From a virus (taxonomy: Duplodnaviria; Caudoviricetes), in the IMG/VR virus record IMGVR_UViG_3300012943_000037, positions 1-57,632 of that record: DNA of 57,632 nucleotides; one strand, written 5' to 3'. Position 1 is the first letter of the stretch. Each line of letters starts with the position of its first letter. Under the pieces are notes generated by a model. That model had not been told where the DNA came from. It was given only the letters and a program-made list of their open reading frames with translations, and searched no databases. The position numbers and the translations under genes are program-made. Of the stretch, positions 2-3,472 are shown piece by piece.

Positions 2-1660
2 CCTAAGACAGATAATGCATTCCTGAAAGCTTCTATTAAGAAGGCAGCAGAAACTACTGCATTAGGAAATGGTGCACTGAAATATACTACTACTGGAAAC
101 GATTTCGTAGACCAGTTTGGTAAGGCAACAATTTATAAGGCTCCTCGTACCTTTGCTGAAATAAGTAAAGATATGAGCTTGTTATTCTCACAAGATGGCC
201 TGACAGCAACTAAGTTTGCTACTTATTTGAGAATGATTACACGTGTGATCTCTTTCAGTGATGGAAGCAGAACAGAACATACACAACGTGGACAGGGCTT
301 GAAACATGAAGGTATATTCCGTATGATTTGGCTGGCACTAAACCAGCCTAACACATTCTGGAAGAATATCCACCTGTTTGTGGCTGCTGGTTCATGGAAG
401 GATGTTATCACCATGTTACAGTATGATTTAGTGTATAATGGATGGGATGGAAGAAAATTGGATTGGGATAATTTTGGTCAGTTAATTCTGGCTGGATTAG
501 AGAACCCACGTTCTTCTGAATTGTTGAAGAAATATCTGCCACAAATCAAGGCTAACTCAGCATGTACAACTGTTGAGAGTCAGGCTGACAACATGATTGC
601 TAAGTGGATATGTTCCCTTATCTTTGGATCAAAAGGTAATACTAATGATTCATCTAAGTATAAGGCATACAGAAAACTGAAGAGTGCAGGTACTGCCCAT
701 AAATGGCAACAGTTGATTAGCCAGAACAAGATGTTATCCATTGATTTCAACTCGATTCATGGTAGAGCATTGGCTAATTTAGTGAGTGGTAAATTCCTGA
801 AAAATGCAGGATTGGAGGCTTCATACCAGAAATGGATTGAAAGTAAACCAGTTGCAAAGTATACAGGTTACCCATATGAACTGATTGGGCCACTTAAGAC
901 AAGAACAGGAATGTCAATTAACCTGACTAAGTATCAGGAAGATACATTGAACAAACAGTTCATGACACTGGTAGAAGTTGCCAGAAATGGTATGGATGAA
1001 GGTGATACTGGACTGTTACCAGTTATTGATACATCTGCATCAATGACATCCTCAGTTCCTGGGACTAAGTGTAGTGCATTTTCTGTAGCTACATCTATGG
1101 CACTGTACTTCTCATACCTGTTAAAGGGTACATTTGAAGATCATTATGCTGAGTTCTCTAACTCATGTATTATGAGACAGTGGAAAGGTAAAGAACCAGT
1201 AGACAGAATCAGAAATCAGGATTCTTCTATCACAGCATCAACAAACTTCCAAGCAATTGGTGATTTATTTGTTGAGATGTTAAGAAAAGGAGTTCCTGAG
1301 AGTGAATTCCCAACTGGTATAATCTGTATCTCAGATGGTTGTTTCAATTCTACAGGTAGCAACAAGACAAACTACCAGACCTTGAAAACGAAACTAAGAT
1401 CAGGTGGTTTTTCACAGGAATATGTGGATAACTTCAAATGTATATTGTGGGATGTACCTAACTCCTACTATGCAAAGAAAGGAAATCAGGCATTTGAATC
1501 ATTTGCAGACCAGCCAAACCTATTCCATATAGGTGGTTTAGACCCTGCATCAATAGCCTTCATTACTGGTATCAAAGGTAGTGAAAGAATACCTCAAACA
1601 TCTGAAGAGTTGTTTGAAGCAGCTATGGAACAGGAAGTTTTGGAAATGATCCAACTTTAA
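2..1660 (+). CDS. DUF2828-family protein with C-terminal vWA domain (Ro60/TROVE-like RNA-binding protein); 5' end lies outside the window
   Basis: The frame is open from position 2 (PKTDNAF...TALGNGALKYTTTGNDFVDQF...) into ORF 173..1660. The NGA-x-Y-TTG-xx-VD-F start, GSWKD, AKW, vWA MIDAS DTSAS, STNF, ISDG-x-F and ILWDV motifs match DUF2828-type proteins. Confidence 0.8.
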   Translation, partial: PKTDNAFLKASIKKAAETTALGNGALKYTTTGNDFVDQFGKATIYKAPRTFAEISKDMSLLFSQDGLTATKFATYLRMITRVISFSDGSRTEHTQRGQGLKHEGIFRMIWLALNQPNTFWKNIHLFVAAGSWKDVITMLQYDLVYNGWDGRKLDWDNFGQLILAGLENPRSSELLKKYLPQIKANSACTTVESQADNMIAKWICSLIFGSKGNTNDSSKYKAYRKLKSAGTAHKWQQLISQNKMLSIDFNSIHGRALANLVSGKFLKNAGLEASYQKWIESKPVAKYTGYPYELIGPLKTRTGMSINLTKYQEDTLNKQFMTLVEVARNGMDEGDTGLLPVIDTSASMTSSVPGTKCSAFSVATSMALYFSYLLKGTFEDHYAEFSNSCIMRQWKGKEPVDRIRNQDSSITASTNFQAIGDLFVEMLRKGVPESEFPTGIICISDGCFNSTGSNKTNYQTLKTKLRSGGFSQEYVDNFKCILWDVPNSYYAKKGNQAFESFADQPNLFHIGGLDPASIAFITGIKGSERIPQTSEELFEAAMEQEVLEMIQL

Positions 1661-1673
1661 TAACAAAAATAAA

Positions 1674-1703
1674 GGATTGGCATAGTTTATGCTATGTCAA
1701 TCC
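1674..1703 (+). other. 12-bp hairpin between the DUF2828 gene and the RNA array (possible processing or stabilising element)
   Basis: GGATTGGCATAG-TTTATG-CTATGTCAATCC; no U-tract follows. Confidence 0.5.
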
Positions 1704-1708
1704 CACAC

Positions 1709-1778
1709 ACGGGAGTAGCTCAAGTGTATAGAGCACCAGAAATGGGGGTTGGTGGTTTGAATCCATCCTCCCGTGCCA
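1709..1778 (+). ncRNA. tRNA-like RNA whose anticodon arm is replaced by a 3-bp GAAA-tetraloop hairpin; encoded CCA end
   Basis: Acceptor ACGGGAG/CTCCCGT, D stem GCTC/GAGC, CCA-GAAA-TGG, T arm GGTGG-TTTGAAT-CCATC, then G-CCA. Confidence 0.8.
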
Positions 1779-1780
1779 CA

Positions 1781-1849
1781 AGATGATGTGCAGCAAACTT
1801 TTATCTATAATTCAGAATTTTACTTTGAAAACAGAAAACAACATCATCT
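1781..1849 (+). ncRNA. Array unit 1 (possible Gln-TTG anticodon-loop-like cargo)
   Basis: AGATGATGT...ACATCATCT stem, GCAGCAAAC; inner CTTTGAA at 1823-1829 has only a weak stem. Confidence 0.7.
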
Positions 1850-1853
1850 GATA

Positions 1854-1913
1854 GGGTTACTAACAGCAAATTCAACATTCAAATTTGGGTTTTGAAAAAC
1901 AAGATAGTAACCC
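1854..1913 (+). ncRNA. Array unit 2 with Pro(TGG) anticodon stem-loop
   Basis: GGGTTACTA...TAGTAACCC stem, ACAGCAAAT; TTCAAA-TTTGGGT-TTTGAA at 1878-1896. Confidence 0.75.
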
Positions 1914-1917
1914 GATA

Positions 1918-1977
1918 AGGTGACCAACAGCAAATCTAATTTACCTACTGCAAATTGGAAATAAAGGATGGTCACCT
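1918..1977 (+). ncRNA. Array unit 3 with Cys(GCA) anticodon-loop mimic
   Basis: AGGTGACCA...TGGTCACCT stem, ACAGCAAAT; CCTA-CTGCAAA-TTGG at 1944-1958 (imperfect stem). Confidence 0.72.
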
Positions 1978-1981
1978 GATA

Positions 1982-2114
1982 AGATTACCCCACAGTACAG
2001 CAAACTTTTGTATTTAACAATTATTAAACATTGGAGTTTTACAAAAAGTAACAAGGTGTGTGAATGGGAACTTCTCTCGGAAGGGAGTTAATAGGAGTTC
2101 ACACAGGGTAATCT
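1982..2114 (+). ncRNA. Array unit 4 (long unit with internal hairpins, cargo unassigned)
   Basis: AGATTACCC...GGGTAATCT stem, ACAGTACAGCAAAC; internal TTTTGTA/TACAAAA and GTGTGAAT/GTTCACAC pairings. Confidence 0.65.
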
Positions 2115-2185
2115 GATTTATATGTAGGAGGAAGGACATACAAGAGTCGTTAAACGTCTCCCAGAGTCCTTCTGACTACTCCAGA

Positions 2186-2321
2186 AGAATTCGTACAGCA
2201 AATAACTAGCAAATTCTAATCATAATAGAAGGTCACAGGTTCGATTCCTGTTCTCCCAACCAGTCTTACTGTCTGGGAGATAGTGTAGTGGAAACATCTA
2301 AAACGCAAAAAAACGAATTCT
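2186..2321 (+). ncRNA. Array unit 5 enclosing a circularly permuted tRNA with CAT anticodon (Met or Ile2)
   Basis: AGAATTCGT...ACGAATTCT stem. The 3' part at 2214-2262 (anticodon arm, T arm, TCTCCCA-A-CCA) precedes the 5' part at 2274-2298 (TGGGAGA, D arm). Confidence 0.82.
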
Positions 2322-2325
2322 GATA

Positions 2326-2530
2326 AGTGTACAGACAGCAAATTACAACGCAAATCCTTGTCACGGACGGGACAGAAGTTCGAATCTTCTACCCCCTGCA
2401 AAGGAATATCTAAGTATCCATGCAAATTGTATGTAACCTGAGGAGGCCATACTTGGAGAGTTTAGATATTCCCTACTTTATAGGGGGTTGGTGTAGTGGT
2501 TAGCATACGTAAAGCAAAAAAATGTACACT
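2326..2530 (+). ncRNA. Array unit 6 enclosing a circularly permuted tRNA-Asp(GTC)
   Basis: AGTGTACA...TGTACACT stem. The 3' part at 2355-2398 precedes the 5' part at 2482-2510; acceptor AGGGGGT/ACCCCCT, discriminator G. Confidence 0.82.
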
Positions 2531-2534
2531 GATA

Positions 2535-2716
2535 GGAAGAGATACAGCAAACAATTATTTAATTGTTCGAATCAATTCTTCCCCACACTTGCAAGTGGGA
2601 GATGATCTATGAAGGAGGGAGGTTGCTAAAACCTTAATACAATCCCCCGGAGGTTATCCAAACCCTGCAAATAAACAAATGGGGAAGCAATAGGGTGGTG
2701 GACACCCTGCTCTTCC
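2535..2716 (+). ncRNA. Array unit 7 with permuted, degenerate tRNA-like content (T arm first)
   Basis: GGAAGAG...CTCTTCC stem, ACAGCAAAC; T arm AATTG-TTCGAAT-CAATT, later hairpin AGGT-TGCTAAA-ACCT. Confidence 0.65.
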
Positions 2717-2720
2717 GTTA

Positions 2721-2783
2721 AGATGTGTAACAGCAAACATTCCCAATGACTCATAATCATTACCACACGGAAAATGCACATCT
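2721..2783 (+). ncRNA. Array unit 8 with CAT anticodon stem-loop
   Basis: AGATGTGTA...TGCACATCT stem, ACAGCAAAC; perfect AATGA-CTCATAA-TCATT at 2745-2761. Confidence 0.8.
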
Positions 2784-2787
2784 GATA

Positions 2788-2856
2788 GGATGCCAAACAG
2801 CAAACAATCTTTAAAACACAAGTAAGCAAAATTTGACAGTTTAAAAAGAGGCATCC
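2788..2856 (+). ncRNA. Array unit 9 (cargo unassigned)
   Basis: GGATGCC...GGCATCC stem, ACAGCAAAC; inner TCTTT/AAAGA pairing. Confidence 0.7.
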
Positions 2857-2863
2857 GTTTTTA

Positions 2864-2930
2864 AGGGCACACACAGCAAACACTTTAAGCATTCTACTTG
2901 TAATGGAAACACGCTAAAAGCATGTGCCCT
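2864..2930 (+). ncRNA. Array unit 10 with Thr(TGT) anticodon stem-loop
   Basis: AGGGCACA...TGTGCCCT stem, ACAGCAAAC; TTCTA-CTTGTAA-TGGAA at 2892-2908. Confidence 0.78.
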
Positions 2931-2934
2931 GTCA

Positions 2935-3050
2935 AGGTATCTAACAGCAAATAACTAGTCGTGTAGGTAGTTCAGTAGGTAGAACACAGGATGGTAAATC
3001 CTGAGGTCTGGGGTTCGAGCCCTCACCCATACAAAACTAAAATGATACCT
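2935..3050 (+). ncRNA. Array unit 11 enclosing a full, non-permuted tRNA-like cloverleaf (2961-3033) with atypical anticodon loop TGGTAAA
   Basis: AGGTATC...GATACCT stem, ACAGCAAAT; GTGTAGG/CCCATAC acceptor, GTTC/GAAC D stem, CAGGA/TCCTG anticodon stem, TGGGG-TTCGAGC-CCTCA T arm. Confidence 0.78.
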
Positions 3051-3055
3051 GAAGT

Positions 3056-3083
3056 CCTTCCTATATGGTGAAATATAGGAAGG
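3056..3083 (+). other. Hairpin between array units 11 and 12
   Basis: CCTTCCTATA-TGGTGAAA-TATAGGAAGG. Confidence 0.5.
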
Positions 3084-3089
3084 CATTTA

Positions 3090-3185
3090 AGTTGGCATAC
3101 AGCAAATTATTTGGTTTAACACAGAATCTCAAACATTCCACGTGAAGTCCCGGTTCAAATCCGGCAAACCCGAAAGGGGCCAACT
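3090..3185 (+). ncRNA. Array unit 12 with D-armless tRNA-like cargo (Leu CAA loop plus T arm)
   Basis: AGTTGGC...GCCAACT stem, ACAGCAAAT; GAAT-CTCAAAC-ATTC, CCGG-TTCAAAT-CCGG, GGTTT/AAACC. Confidence 0.72.
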
Positions 3186-3208
3186 GTTTTTTATTTAAAA
3201 TCAAGACT

Positions 3209-3472
3209 ATGAACGGAATTACTAATCCTAAAGAGTTAAGAGAAGCTATTGCACTAGCCAAAACTGGTGATAAAGAAGCTTTACATCAAATCCATCTGTA
3301 TAAGTGGTATAATTGGTATCAGAATATACATATAAAGGAGGGAACTCCTGAGGATATTGAGAATACCGAAATCTTTAATGATATTAAGGAAAATGATCCT
3401 GAATTACATAAAGAGATTGAAAAGATGATAGATGGTCAAATTTACAAACTTGTATCCACTGAATATTTGTAA
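3209..3472 (+). CDS. Small hypothetical protein embedded between array units 12 and 13
   Basis: 87-aa ATG ORF with composition typical of the genome. Confidence 0.65.
   Translation: MNGITNPKELREAIALAKTGDKEALHQIHLYKWYNWYQNIHIKEGTPEDIENTEIFNDIKENDPELHKEIEKMIDGQIYKLVSTEYL

What the first reader, a model, noticed from the sequence alone, without database searches (positions are those of the whole stretch)
2326..2530. Circularly permuted tRNA-Asp(GTC) split within the anticodon stem, with an 83-nt structured linker
The 3' part (2355-2398: TCC-TTGTCAC-GGACG, GGAC, AGAAG-TTCGAAT-CTTCT, ACCCCCT-G) precedes the 5' part (2482-2509: AGGGGGT, TG, GTGT-AGTGGTTA-GCAT, A, CG). Joining CG to TCC rebuilds a perfect CGTCC/GGACG anticodon stem, and the G73 discriminator fits Asp identity. 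The linker between the acceptor strands is itself a hairpin (GGAATATCTAA/TTAGATATTCC). A second independent permuted tRNA with complementary halves makes chance unlikely.
Basis: seen in the sequence. Interest (0 to 1): 0.85.

Follow-up and report, generated by a model that had tools for sequence, protein, structure and literature searches.

The report
Rearranged tRNA-Asp mimic in phage RNA
A phage small-RNA gene holds every part of an aspartate tRNA in swapped order inside a conserved "handle", and it is most likely a tRNA look-alike that works with the neighbouring Ro60-like protein, not a tRNA used to make protein.

Summary
At 2355-2398 and 2482-2509 lie the 3' and 5' parts of a complete tRNA-Asp(GTC) cloverleaf in swapped order, broken after position 28 or 29 of the anticodon stem. 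An 83-nt hairpin closes the acceptor end. A strict scan finds this unit and its neighbour (2186-2321, CAT) and nothing in 100 shuffles.

It is not a stand-alone permuted tRNA gene. It is unit 6 of a roughly 12-unit array (1781-3185). Each unit is a terminal stem, then ACAGCAAA, then a payload, with GATA spacers between units. The array follows a gene whose predicted fold matches Ro60.

The same gene-plus-handle pairing occurs in 25 of 34 loci (33 IMG/VR relatives plus this window) and beside the gene in 7 of 9 cultured phages examined. Thirteen units are permuted cloverleaves, mostly broken at the same place. Some have sealed acceptor stems. Four carry Ser, Leu or Tyr anticodons on short-variable-loop bodies. 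Other units carry only an anticodon hairpin. Rfam's YrlA model hits four of the six relatives' units it matched at E 6.5e-6 to 0.004, all below its threshold.

Best reading (0.65): a Y-RNA-like tRNA mimic bound by the Ro60-like protein. I found no splice motif and no RNA data, so maturation to a working tRNA is not excluded.

This scan has met the same system before on at least 10 other genomes. My paper searches found no description of it.

The parts
173..1660 (+). Gene for a 495-aa Ro60-fold protein (DUF2828/DUF7788 type), the presumed partner of the array RNAs
   Evidence: phrog_850 'RNA-binding protein', E 6.7e-32. Pfam DUF7788 at 24.4 bits, below the 27.1 cut-off. Nearest Atlas clusters are DUF7788/DUF2828. 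AlphaFold2 model has pLDDT 88 and pTM 0.85. The top 13 Foldseek PDB hits are all Ro60/TROVE, E 7.3e-8 to 4e-5, TM 0.36-0.57. The frame is open from base 2; relatives align from the ATG at 173.
1781..3185 (+). Array of about 12 handle units (terminal stem, ACAGCAAA, payload, terminal stem). It ends in a stem followed by a T run.
   Evidence: ACAGCAAA occurs 11 times on the + strand between 1863 and 3106, and 15 times in the window against 2.3 expected. No sigma-70-like promoter lies inside the array.
2322..2325 (+). GATA spacer before the unit
   Evidence: GATA follows 61 of 125 array units in the census, which includes this window's units.
2326..2333 (+). Terminal stem, 5' strand (pairs with 2523-2530)
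   Evidence: Eight Watson-Crick pairs between the first and last 8 nt of the stretch bounded by the two GATA spacers.
2335..2342 (+). Handle motif ACAGCAAA, unpaired, directly 3' of the stem
   Evidence: The first seven letters, ACAGCAA, are the same in 11 of the 13 permuted units.
2343..2354 (+). A-rich leader joining the handle to the tRNA part
   Evidence: No helix with the trailer beyond chance.
2355..2369 (+). Anticodon arm piece: positions 29-31, 7-nt loop with GTC (2360-2362), positions 39-43
2370..2390 (+). 4-nt variable region and T arm (5-bp stem, TTCGAAT loop)
2391..2398 (+). Acceptor 3' strand and discriminator G; no encoded CCA
2399..2481 (+). 83-nt linker closing the acceptor end; long imperfect hairpin (arms 2403-2413 and 2462-2472)
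   Evidence: Linkers in the 13 units range from 3 to 173 nt.
2482..2509 (+). tRNA 5' part: acceptor 5' strand, U8-G9, D arm, A26, positions 27-28 (CG)
2510..2522 (+). A-rich trailer back to the handle
   Evidence: The trailer begins with T in 12 of 13 units.
2523..2530 (+). Terminal stem, 3' strand
2531..2534 (+). GATA spacer after the unit
2186..2321 (+). Sister unit 5: permuted cloverleaf with CAT anticodon, break at 26|27, 14-nt linker, ACCA after the acceptor strand
   Evidence: Rfam YrlA 18.3 bits at 2231-2297.

Best explanation
Unit 2326-2530 is one small RNA of a phage Y-RNA-like family.

Proposed architecture:
- Its two ends pair into an 8-bp terminal stem. That stem and the unpaired ACAGCAAA next to it form a conserved handle.
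- The neighbouring Ro60-fold (DUF2828-type) protein most likely binds this handle.
- Two unstructured A-rich linkers hang the payload from the handle. The payload is a complete tRNA-Asp-shaped module.
- The chain enters and leaves that module at the backbone between positions 28 and 29 of the anticodon stem. An 83-nt hairpin closes the acceptor end.
- The L-shape, the anticodon loop and the elbow can therefore all form with no cutting or joining.

Proposed function: the module acts as a tRNA mimic. It is either a decoy or an adaptor for a protein that recognises tRNA-Asp, such as a tRNA-targeting nuclease, a modification or repair enzyme, or a defence sensor. It does this as part of a ribonucleoprotein that helps the phage. 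It is not a decoding tRNA.

Shown here: the sequence anatomy, its recurrence and conserved break point in relatives, the Ro60 fold of the neighbour, and the co-occurrence of handle and gene.

Inferred: that the protein binds the handle, that units are released at the GATA spacers, and that the module acts by mimicry.
For: 1. The unit has the handle grammar shared by about 12 tandem units behind the gene.

2. The neighbour's model (pLDDT 88) matches Ro60/TROVE structures over its full length; the top 13 hits are all Ro60/TROVE.

3. The pairing recurs. Twenty-five of 34 loci (33 distinct IMG/VR relatives plus the window) have at least 2 abutting units, 125 units in all. Units lie beside the gene in 7 of 9 cultured-phage loci examined: Leptolyngbya Lbo-JY46, Listeria A511, Klebsiella KP2025, E. 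coli SUSP2, Staphylococcus S-CoN_Ph16, Bacillus Tsamsa and Campylobacter CP39. Yersinia fHe-Yen9-04 and the Vibrio QD01 gene locus have none.

4. Thirteen permuted cloverleaf units have a rebuildable anticodon arm, and the break follows position 28 or 29 in 11 of 13.

5. The payloads form a continuum that a decoding role cannot explain:
- L014 and L037 keep a canonical anticodon loop although a 3-nt linker seals the acceptor stem (a 4-nt loop counting the discriminator).
- Four of 13 carry TGA, TGA, GAG or GTA on bodies with 4-5-nt variable loops. The canonical Ser, Leu and Tyr tRNAs of relative G003 are 81-83 nt.
- G003 holds a canonical tRNA-Tyr(gta) beside its permuted GTA unit.
- At least 9 further permuted bodies lack a standard 7-nt anticodon loop (one, L013, has a 9-nt loop). 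In at least three of them (L008, L024, L010) the handle takes the loop's place.
- Short units carry only a 5-bp/7-nt hairpin. Sixty-four of 125 units have one, T arms included, against a mean of 8.3 and a maximum of 19 in 200 shuffles.

6. Vibrio phage QD01 has the unpermuted counterpart: tRNA-shaped genes with a 15-20-bp extended acceptor helix and the handle as a hairpin after position 28 or in place of the anticodon loop. QD01 also has a homologue of the protein (E 1e-28).

7. Rfam's YrlA model hits sister units: 42, 39.5, 35.7 and 32.4 bits, E 6.5e-6 to 0.004. The tRNA-like core aligns in T arm, closed acceptor, D arm order.

8. In print (passages read):
- YrlA is a tRNA mimic encoded beside Ro60, and the M. 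smegmatis form is cut by RNase P and receives CCA (PMC4201824).
- Bas63 gp130 is Ro60-like, lies upstream of the tRNA genes and counters the Ppl defence (PMC11482910).
- The Rsr-like protein of Listeria phage CKA15 lies downstream of the three most transcribed unannotated regions, which are near the phage's tRNA genes (PMC12282133).
Against: - No RNA or binding data exist for this locus. No RNA run was listed, so expression, unit ends and protein binding are all inferred.
- This unit, unlike some sisters, has everything a real tRNA-Asp needs: a 7-bp acceptor stem, G73, U33, GTC, C38, a class I body and a long linker that RNase P could remove. M. smegmatis YrlA shows that such cleavage and CCA addition happen in vivo.
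- The break lies in a helix, where a nick could be sealed. An Rnl2-type RNA ligase domain (PF09414) is present in 5 of 5 relatives' records searched.
- Neither this unit nor any sister reaches Rfam's YrlA gathering score. The handle motif differs from the GNCGAA motif of YrlA.
- The protein is not a Pfam TROVE match. A profile of it finds no PDB sequence at E<=1.
- The terminal stems taken singly are not significant in a lenient shuffle test: 15 to 186 of 300 shuffles reach the observed length, and 73 of 300 for this unit. Their support comes from exact tiling with the spacers and from relatives.
- The target of the mimicry is unknown.
Confidence: 0.65

Rival explanations
1. It is a true permuted tRNA gene. 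RNase P and 3' trimming open the acceptor end. The leader and trailer are removed back to the nick at 28|29, and an RNA ligase seals the nick. The product is a linear (or first circular) tRNA-Asp that is charged and decodes GAC/GAU. On this reading the handle is a new kind of removable intervening element.
For: - The rejoined parts give a flawless class I cloverleaf with GTC, U33, C38 and G73.
- The break position in the helix is conserved, and the flanks are single-stranded and A-rich. This would suit trimming followed by nick sealing.
- PF09414 RNA ligase domains occur in 5 of 5 relatives' records.
- Sister unit 5 and L029 encode CCA after the discriminator.
- In Vibrio phage the same element sits like an intron after position 28.
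- In distant phages the protein gene lies in or beside ordinary tRNA clusters.
Against: - There is no helix between leader and trailer, so no BHB-like motif. Twelve of 13 units are at chance.
- No tRNA-splicing endonuclease, RtcB or RNA ligase domain was found in this record, but it is only 31% complete. RtcB is in 0 of 5 relatives.
- Sisters have sealed acceptor stems, class II anticodons on class I bodies, no standard anticodon loop, or an anticodon hairpin alone. These cannot become tRNAs, yet they share the handle.
- The Vibrio forms have 15-20-bp acceptor helices, and one has no anticodon loop at all.
- The phage encodes ordinary tRNAs in ordinary form elsewhere.
- RNA ligases are common in large phages.
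Confidence: 0.12
2. It is a two-piece, handle-tethered tRNA-like RNA. RNase P and 3' trimming or CCA addition excise the 83-nt linker, but the handle stays. The two fragments are held together by the acceptor stem, the terminal stem and tertiary contacts. The product has a free CCA end that may be charged or bound by CCA- or acceptor-recognising proteins while it stays on the Ro60-like protein.
For: - The 7-bp acceptor stem stacked on the T arm is the RNase P determinant named for M. smegmatis YrlA, which is cut and receives CCA in vivo (PMC4201824 passages).
- Long structured linkers (83, 72 and 173 nt) occur only in units with 7-bp acceptor stems.
- ACCA is encoded in unit 5 and in L029.
- Two-piece permuted tmRNA is a bacterial precedent (recalled, not checked here).
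Against: - No data exist on cleavage.
- Several sisters close the acceptor stem with 3-5-nt linkers, so an open end is not general.
- This unit encodes no CCA.
Confidence: 0.12
3. It is a processing signal or a decayed by-product. Either tRNA-like folds merely mark cleavage sites for RNase P or Z in a long array transcript, or the unit is a rearranged tRNA pseudogene left by recombination in a tRNA cluster.
For: - The array appears to be one transcript ending in a terminator-like stem and T run.
- tRNA clusters flank the protein gene in distant phages.
Against: - All stems are perfect, and the anticodon loop keeps U33 and R37.
- The same permuted design with the same break recurs in 13 units of 10 phage records (9 relatives plus this window), with different stem sequences.
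- Only some units have tRNA-like parts, while all have the handle and spacers.
Confidence: 0.05

Closest known systems
YrlA-type Y RNAs with bacterial and phage Ro60/Rsr (Rfam RF02553; Chen et al. 2014, PMC4201824, passages read)
   Same: - A small RNA encoded next to a Ro60-fold protein.
- The RNA's ends pair in a stem that takes the place of, or attaches at, the anticodon stem.
- The tRNA-like domain is in T arm, closed acceptor stem, D arm order with tRNA tertiary nucleotides.
- The YrlA model hits sister units at E 6.5e-6 to 0.004.
- RNase P and CCA addition are known for one YrlA.
   Different: - It has a complete anticodon hairpin with a true anticodon as a side branch.
- It has a 7-bp acceptor stem with an 83-nt insert.
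- The handle motif is ACAGCAAA, not GNCGAA.
- There are about 12 tandem units with mixed payloads instead of one or two RNAs.
- The protein is of DUF2828/DUF7788 type, with no Pfam TROVE match.
- Scores are below Rfam's gathering score: none for this unit, 18 bits for unit 5, 24-42 bits in relatives.
Circularly permuted tRNA genes of Cyanidioschyzon merolae, some green algae and nucleomorphs, and Thermofilum (recalled from Soma et al. 2007 and later work; not read here, seen only as a term in search listings)
   Same: The 3' part lies upstream of the 5' part on one strand. The acceptor ends are joined by an intervening stretch. The rejoined parts give a canonical cloverleaf.
   Different: - Those genes have a bulge-helix-bulge at the leader/trailer junction, cut by the splicing endonuclease, and pass through a circular intermediate.
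- Here the flanks do not pair and no such enzyme was found.
- The host world is bacterial.
- The unit is embedded in a protein-binding handle, in an array whose other members cannot be tRNAs.
Two-piece (circularly permuted) tmRNA genes of alpha-proteobacteria and some cyanobacteria (recalled, not checked here)
   Same: A bacterial tRNA-like domain encoded with its acceptor 3' strand upstream of its 5' strand. It is matured by excision of the intervening loop into two base-paired pieces.
   Different: tmRNA has no anticodon arm. It is charged with alanine and acts on ribosomes with SmpB. It has no handle and no array.
Class I RNAs of dictyostelid amoebae (Rfam RF01414; Kjellin et al. 2021, PMC7919456, passages read)
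   Same: This concerns the handle only. Both have a short stem joining the 5' and 3' ends, an unpaired conserved motif containing ACAGCAA next to the 5' strand, a variable remainder and a length near 60 nt. The model gives 20-32 bits on short units. The authors took 25 bits plus a stem as a candidate.
   Different: All hits are below the gathering score of 41.5. Class I RNAs are eukaryotic, separately transcribed genes with a known RRM partner. This 205-nt unit itself is not hit.

Membership tests
Permuted tRNA gene (Cyanidioschyzon type) | 3' part upstream of 5' part on the same strand, rejoining to a canonical cloverleaf | tested here: met
   0 of 100 shuffles give such a pattern
Permuted tRNA gene (Cyanidioschyzon type) | Leader and trailer at the junction pair into a bulge-helix-bulge for the splicing endonuclease | tested here: not met
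   The longest leader/trailer helix is 3 bp, reached by 202 of 500 shuffles. Twelve of 13 sister units are at chance. There is no PF01974 match in the record, which is 31% complete.
Permuted tRNA gene (Cyanidioschyzon type) | Circular intermediate and mature, charged linear tRNA | not testable with these tools
   No RNA run was listed.
YrlA / Y RNA (RF02553) | Encoded beside a Ro60 orthologue | tested here: inconclusive
   The neighbour has a Ro60 fold. It is of DUF2828/DUF7788 type with no TROVE Pfam match and no PDB sequence match.
YrlA / Y RNA (RF02553) | tRNA-like domain ordered T arm, closed acceptor stem, D arm, attached to a terminal stem at the anticodon-stem position | tested here: met
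   alignment of a sister unit to the model
YrlA / Y RNA (RF02553) | Reaches Rfam's gathering score (69 bits) | tested here: not met
   No hit on 2326-2530 at E<=10, and 18.3 bits on unit 5. Relatives score 24-42 bits.
YrlA / Y RNA (RF02553) | Conserved GNCGAAN0-1G motif in the Ro60-binding module (Chen 2014 legend) | tested here: not met
   The motif beside the stem is ACAGCAAA.
Canonical tRNA (RF00005) | Contiguous cloverleaf found by tRNA finders | tested here: not met
Stem-CAGCAA handle RNAs beside DUF2828 genes (no published name; defined by this scan) | Terminal stem of 7-9 bp, unpaired (A)CAGCAA(A) directly 3' of the 5' strand, A-rich 3' linker, tandem units a few nt apart, next to a DUF2828-type gene | tested here: met
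   The same features occur in 25 of 34 loci (33 relatives plus the window) and 7 of 9 cultured-phage loci.
Dictyostelid Class I RNA (RF01414) | Reaches Rfam's gathering score (41.5 bits) | tested here: not met
   This unit is not hit. Neighbouring short units score 18-20.5 bits and relatives score up to 32.5 bits.

The most novel reading that the evidence does not exclude
The handle is a new, protein-dependent intervening element of tRNAs. Once the acceptor end is opened, the A-rich leader and trailer are trimmed back to the nick at 28|29. The Rnl2-type ligase that these phages carry then seals the nick, giving a working tRNA-Asp. That would make these the first permuted tRNA genes, and the first tRNA 'splicing' not based on a self-splicing intron, in the bacterial and phage world. 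The Ro60-like protein would act as the assembly platform.
Probability: 0.1. Interest if true: 0.9.

Novelty: new variant of a known kind. Interest (0 to 1): 0.68.

Why it matters
Ro60 and its Y RNAs are known from animals, some bacteria and a few phages. What the tRNA-like part of bacterial Y RNAs does is still open.

This is a second, much larger branch of the same idea:
- a different Ro60-fold protein family (DUF2828), found in 304 of 50,697 deposited phage records;
- a different RNA handle;
- whole arrays of RNAs that display tRNA parts, up to complete cloverleaves with true anticodons such as this tRNA-Asp unit.

One homologue (Bas63 gp130) is reported to counter a bacterial defence, with no RNA partner identified (preprint passage).

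Units with different anticodons on the same body point to a set of tRNA look-alikes aimed at tRNA-recognising proteins. This can be tested in cultured phages of E. coli, Bacillus, Listeria, Staphylococcus and Leptolyngbya.

The finding also has a practical side. tRNA finders miss these genes, and annotators turn them into small hypothetical proteins.

Tried and rejected
- ARAGORN as a test of the junction: rejected. It calls tRNAs for many wrong join offsets once the acceptor, T and D arms are good.
- Overall identity to annotated tRNAs as a test of Asp identity: not discriminating.
- Hammerhead, C/D-box and other ribozyme readings of ACAGCAAA and CTGATARG: considered by eye and dropped. Part of CTGATARG is the stem end plus the GATA spacer, and Rfam gave no ribozyme hit in 1600-3300 at E<=10.
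- Reading the 5' part of one unit with the 3' part of the next as a split tRNA: rejected, because the acceptor strands of neighbouring units do not pair.
- RNA evidence: no RNA holder was listed for 1680-3200.
- Sequence search of the protein profile against PDB chains: 0 hits. The fold search did find matches.
- RNA ligase, RtcB and splicing-endonuclease domains in the window's own record: none, but the record is estimated 31% complete. Twenty ORFs scanned in PHROGs and Pfam gave only DNA-metabolism functions.
- Stop-codon reassignment in relative G003, to see whether its TCA unit is needed: my ORF-length count was too crude to say.
- Shuffle test of single terminal stems: not significant under lenient rules.
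- From the 17 rows with a rebuildable anticodon arm I kept 13. I dropped L015 8342 (a duplicate of L014), L016 6998 (all-T/all-A stem), L019 5848 (inside the protein gene) and L033 7150 (doubtful acceptor stem). The requirement of 5 of 5 anticodon-stem pairs selected these units, so the pair counts for that stem are not an unbiased covariation test.
- MAFFT alignment A3 was out of register for the helices, so I did not use it for pair counts.
- Whether the three highly transcribed regions of Listeria phage CKA15 are the three handle units I see upstream of A511 gp57 could not be settled from the passages. The one region whose coordinates are given seems to lie further upstream.
- Whether dictyostelids encode a DUF2828 protein was not tested here.
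- Supplementary tables of Chen et al. 2014 (lists of phage YrlA RNAs) are closed and might already include relatives of these units.
- Searches for prior description found no paper describing stem-CAGCAA handle RNAs or permuted tRNAs in phages. Two papers only speculate that RNAs near Ro60-like phage genes are Y RNAs.
This call repeats it with that field added.
Full report
**What is there**

The window is a 57.6-kb phage record, estimated 31% complete. It has DNA polymerase, helicase, ligase, RecA and ribonucleotide reductase genes, all on the + strand.

The finding lies in a 1.5-kb stretch without long ORFs. This stretch follows the first gene (173-1660) and ends in a stem plus T run at 3185-3200.

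- 2355-2398 holds positions 29-31, a 7-nt loop with GTC, positions 39-43, a 4-nt variable region, a T arm with a TTCGAAT loop, the acceptor 3' strand and G73.
- 2399-2481 is an 83-nt linker that folds into a long imperfect hairpin.
- 2482-2509 holds the acceptor 5' strand, U8, a D arm with GG, A26 and positions 27-28.

**Is it more than chance**

ARAGORN and Rfam see nothing at 2326-2530. When a script joins 2482-2509 to 2355-2398 by coordinates, ARAGORN calls tRNA-Asp(gtc) of 72 nt. ARAGORN accepts many other join offsets too, so I wrote a strict scan for a complete permuted cloverleaf.

That scan finds two places on the + strand: this unit and 2186-2321 with CAT. It finds none on the - strand and none in 100 dinucleotide shuffles of the whole window.

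The break can be read after position 28 or 29, because the trailer starts with the same base as the 3' part.

The Asp label rests on the anticodon loop, G73 and G10-U25. Overall identity to 22 annotated phage tRNAs does not single out Asp.

**The unit is part of an array**

ACAGCAAA occurs 11 times on the + strand between 1863 and 3106. It occurs 15 times in the window, against 2.3 expected and at most 6 in 100 shuffles.

Each occurrence follows a 7-9-nt segment whose complement lies 50-300 nt downstream. Consecutive units are mostly separated by exactly GATA.

For this unit:
- the 8 nt after the GATA at 2322-2325 (2326-2333) are the exact complement of the 8 nt before the GATA at 2531-2534 (2523-2530);
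- ACAGCAAA is at 2335-2342;
- a 12-nt leader and a 13-nt trailer, both A-rich, connect this handle to the tRNA parts.

A lenient shuffle test shows that single stems of this length are not rare by chance: 15-186 of 300 shuffles, and 73 of 300 for this unit. The support for the stems comes from their tiling with the spacers and from relatives, not from any one stem.

Other units of the array carry:
- only a 5-bp/7-nt hairpin with U33 and R37 (for example 1781-1849, 2721-2783, 2864-2930);
- a contiguous tRNA-Tyr-like cloverleaf (2961-3033);
- a T arm with a capped stem (3090-3185);
- a degenerate permuted body (2535-2716).

An anticodon-less tRNA with CCA (1709-1775, 42 bits) precedes the array.

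**The neighbouring protein**

- PHROGs calls the 495-aa product an RNA-binding protein (E 6.7e-32).
- Pfam gives only DUF7788, below its cut-off.
- The protein atlas places it with DUF7788/DUF2828 clusters.
- An AlphaFold2 model from 32 relatives has pLDDT 88 and pTM 0.85.
- Its 13 best Foldseek matches in the PDB are all Ro60/TROVE structures, matched over the full length. They include Xenopus and human Ro60, Deinococcus Rsr and the Thermus phage Ro60 (E 7.3e-8 to 4e-5, TM 0.36-0.57).
- A sequence profile finds no PDB chain.

**Relatives**

Thirty-five IMG/VR loci encode relatives at 37-61% identity.

Of 34 loci (33 distinct IMG/VR relatives plus the window; two duplicates were dropped), 25 have at least two abutting handle units. 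That is 125 units in all, 61 of them followed by GATA. Lengths fall into two groups, 49-80 nt and about 90-300 nt.

tblastn finds the protein in 304 of 50,697 deposited phage records, from Listeria, Salmonella, Escherichia, Staphylococcus, Enterococcus, Bacillus, Vibrio and other hosts.

I looked at nine cultured-phage gene loci:
- Handle units lie beside the gene in seven: Leptolyngbya Lbo-JY46, Listeria A511, Klebsiella KP2025, E. coli SUSP2, Staphylococcus S-CoN_Ph16, Bacillus Tsamsa and Campylobacter CP39.
- They are absent within 4 kb in Yersinia fHe-Yen9-04 and at the Vibrio QD01 gene locus.
- In A511, KP2025, SUSP2, Tsamsa and CP39 the gene sits in or next to the phage's tRNA cluster.

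**Permuted cloverleaves are a recurrent payload**

Thirteen units, including the two here, rebuild a 5-bp anticodon stem with a 7-nt loop. The selection and the dropped rows are given under Tried and rejected.

The part of the 5' strand supplied by the downstream piece is 2 or 3 nt in 11 of the 13 units, 0 nt in one and 5 nt in one. The break therefore sits after position 28 or 29 almost everywhere.

Acceptor, T and terminal stems differ in sequence between units but stay paired. Acceptor linkers run from 3 to 173 nt. The trailer starts with T in 12 of 13 units.

At least nine further permuted bodies lack a standard 7-nt anticodon loop. One of them (L013) has a 9-nt loop. In at least three (L008, L024, L010) the handle stands in place of the loop.

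**Why I read it as a mimic and not a tRNA gene**

1. Two sisters with canonical anticodon loops (L014 GGT, L037 GAG) have acceptor stems sealed by a 3-nt linker, a 4-nt loop counting the discriminator. The SUSP2 and KP2025 units are closed in the same way. The anticodon loop is therefore kept where no acceptor end exists.

2. Four of 13 units carry TGA, TGA, GAG or GTA on bodies with 4-5-nt variable regions. Bacterial Ser, Leu and Tyr tRNAs have long variable arms (textbook knowledge). The canonical ones in relative G003 are 81-83 nt. G003 also has a normal tRNA-Tyr(gta) beside its permuted GTA unit.

3. Units with only an anticodon-type hairpin are common. Sixty-four of 125 units have such a hairpin, T arms included, against a mean of 8.3 and a maximum of 19 in 200 shuffles.

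4. Leader and trailer do not pair. For this unit the longest helix is 3 bp, reached by 202 of 500 shuffles, and 12 of 13 units are at chance. There is no bulge-helix-bulge.

5. Vibrio phage QD01 has the same composite unpermuted. Its tRNA-shaped genes have 15-20-bp acceptor helices. The handle is a hairpin with a GAYA loop, either inserted after position 28 or, in one gene, replacing the anticodon loop. QD01 also encodes a homologue of the protein 14 kb away. The window's form and the Vibrio form are circular permutations of one RNA design.

6. Rfam's YrlA model hits sister units at 42, 39.5, 35.7 and 32.4 bits (E 6.5e-6 to 0.004). Two weaker hits score 26.1 and 24.2 bits (E 0.25 and 0.89). 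All are below the gathering score of 69. The alignment matches the T arm, closed acceptor, D arm core.

**What keeps the tRNA reading alive**

This particular unit lacks none of the features of a class I tRNA-Asp. Its 7-bp acceptor stem with a long linker is what RNase P needs. M. smegmatis YrlA is cut by RNase P and receives CCA in vivo (PMC4201824, passages).

The break lies in a helix between single-stranded flanks, where trimming and nick sealing are conceivable. PF09414 RNA-ligase domains occur in 5 of 5 relatives' records searched. RtcB occurs in 0 of 5 and Rnl1 in 1 of 5. No RNA run was listed, so none of this can be decided here.

**Function of the particle**

Passages read in two papers bear on distant homologues.
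- Bas63 gp130 is structurally like Ro60 and lies directly upstream of tRNA genes. It counters the Ppl defence, and the authors guess that some of the neighbouring tRNA genes are Y RNAs (PMC11482910).
- The Rsr-like protein of Listeria phage CKA15 is found in virions. It lies within 2 kb downstream of the three most transcribed regions of the genome, which are unannotated and near the tRNA genes (PMC12282133).

I therefore commit to a counter-defence or tRNA-surveillance particle. In it the protein holds the handle, and the payload imitates a tRNA for some tRNA-recognising protein. Which protein that is remains unknown.

**Novelty**

My paper searches found no description of the handle, of these arrays or of permuted tRNAs in phages. 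Supplements of Chen et al. 2014 were closed.

Notes of this scan show that the same system has been met on at least 10 other genomes, with similar readings. Those notes are unchecked and were not used as evidence.

Against the literature this is a new variant of the Ro60/Y-RNA kind. What this unit adds is a full cloverleaf, with a true anticodon arm, attached to the handle at a conserved point in the anticodon stem.

Noticed in passing
window 1782-1850; L024 6622-6680, 6996-7048, 4784-4842; L014 10847-10912; L037 6826-6886: Rfam's Dictyostelium Class I RNA model gives repeated sub-threshold hits (20.5 to 32.5 bits; gathering score 41.5) on short handle units. The architecture is the same: terminal stem, ACAGCAA beside the 5' strand, about 60 nt. 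Kjellin et al. took 25 bits plus a stem as a candidate. I did not test whether dictyostelids encode a DUF2828 protein.
   Followed up: partly
L006 2590-3265 (Vibrio phage QD01): Three tRNA-shaped genes have 15-20-bp acceptor helices and carry the handle as a hairpin after position 28 or in place of the anticodon loop. The record annotates the region as small hypothetical proteins. Two related Vibrio phages (VS1, VS2) matched the same 70 nt.
   Followed up: partly
L046 5399-5457, 6014-6084, 6104-6225; L048 2092-2214, 3312-3371, 3701-3761; L047 5223-5438; L050 3351-3489; L044 3913-4178; L045 5618-5738; L042 6409-6760: Unannotated handle units lie beside the DUF2828 gene in cultured phages of E. 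coli, Bacillus, Staphylococcus, Campylobacter, Listeria, Klebsiella and Leptolyngbya. The SUSP2, Tsamsa and KP2025 loci include permuted tRNA-like units.
   Followed up: partly
window 1709-1775: A tRNA-like gene (Rfam tRNA, 42 bits) with full acceptor, D and T arms and an encoded CCA, but an anticodon arm cut down to a few nucleotides. It lies just before the array.
   Followed up: no
window 2935-3050: Handle unit holding a contiguous cloverleaf (2961-3033, Rfam 53 bits, ARAGORN Tyr gta). It has G instead of U at position 33 and a short variable region, unlike bacterial tRNA-Tyr.
   Followed up: no
window 2535-2716: Handle unit with a T arm, an 8-bp acceptor-like helix interrupted by a linker of about 95 nt, and a 5-bp hairpin in place of a D arm. 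It has no anticodon arm.
   Followed up: no
table: L016 6704 vs L018 6731 vs L033 6874: Units that look orthologous in related phages have identical anticodon-stem sequences but differ in the anticodon (TGA vs TCA). The D arm TG-GTGT-AGTGG..-GCAY recurs on scaffolded units of this window and of Vibrio, E. coli and Bacillus phages. This suggests a shared body with swappable anticodon loops.
   Followed up: no
L037 6969-7533: A group I intron (91.9 bits) lies directly after a tmRNA-like hit (29 bits, below threshold), downstream of that relative's handle array.
   Followed up: no
L049 (Yersinia phage fHe-Yen9-04); L047 and L048: In the jumbo phage, an RNA ligase gene lies two genes upstream of the DUF2828 gene and a tRNA nucleotidyltransferase gene lies downstream. 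In the Staphylococcus and Bacillus phages, a gene annotated as an exonuclease lies downstream of the DUF2828 gene, separated by one or two small genes.
   Followed up: no
G003 (L051-L058) 148830-148903: The 159-kb relative carries a canonical tRNA with anticodon CTA (amber-reading) among its 23 tRNAs, and a permuted handle unit with TCA. My crude ORF count could not tell whether any stop codon is reassigned.
   Followed up: partly
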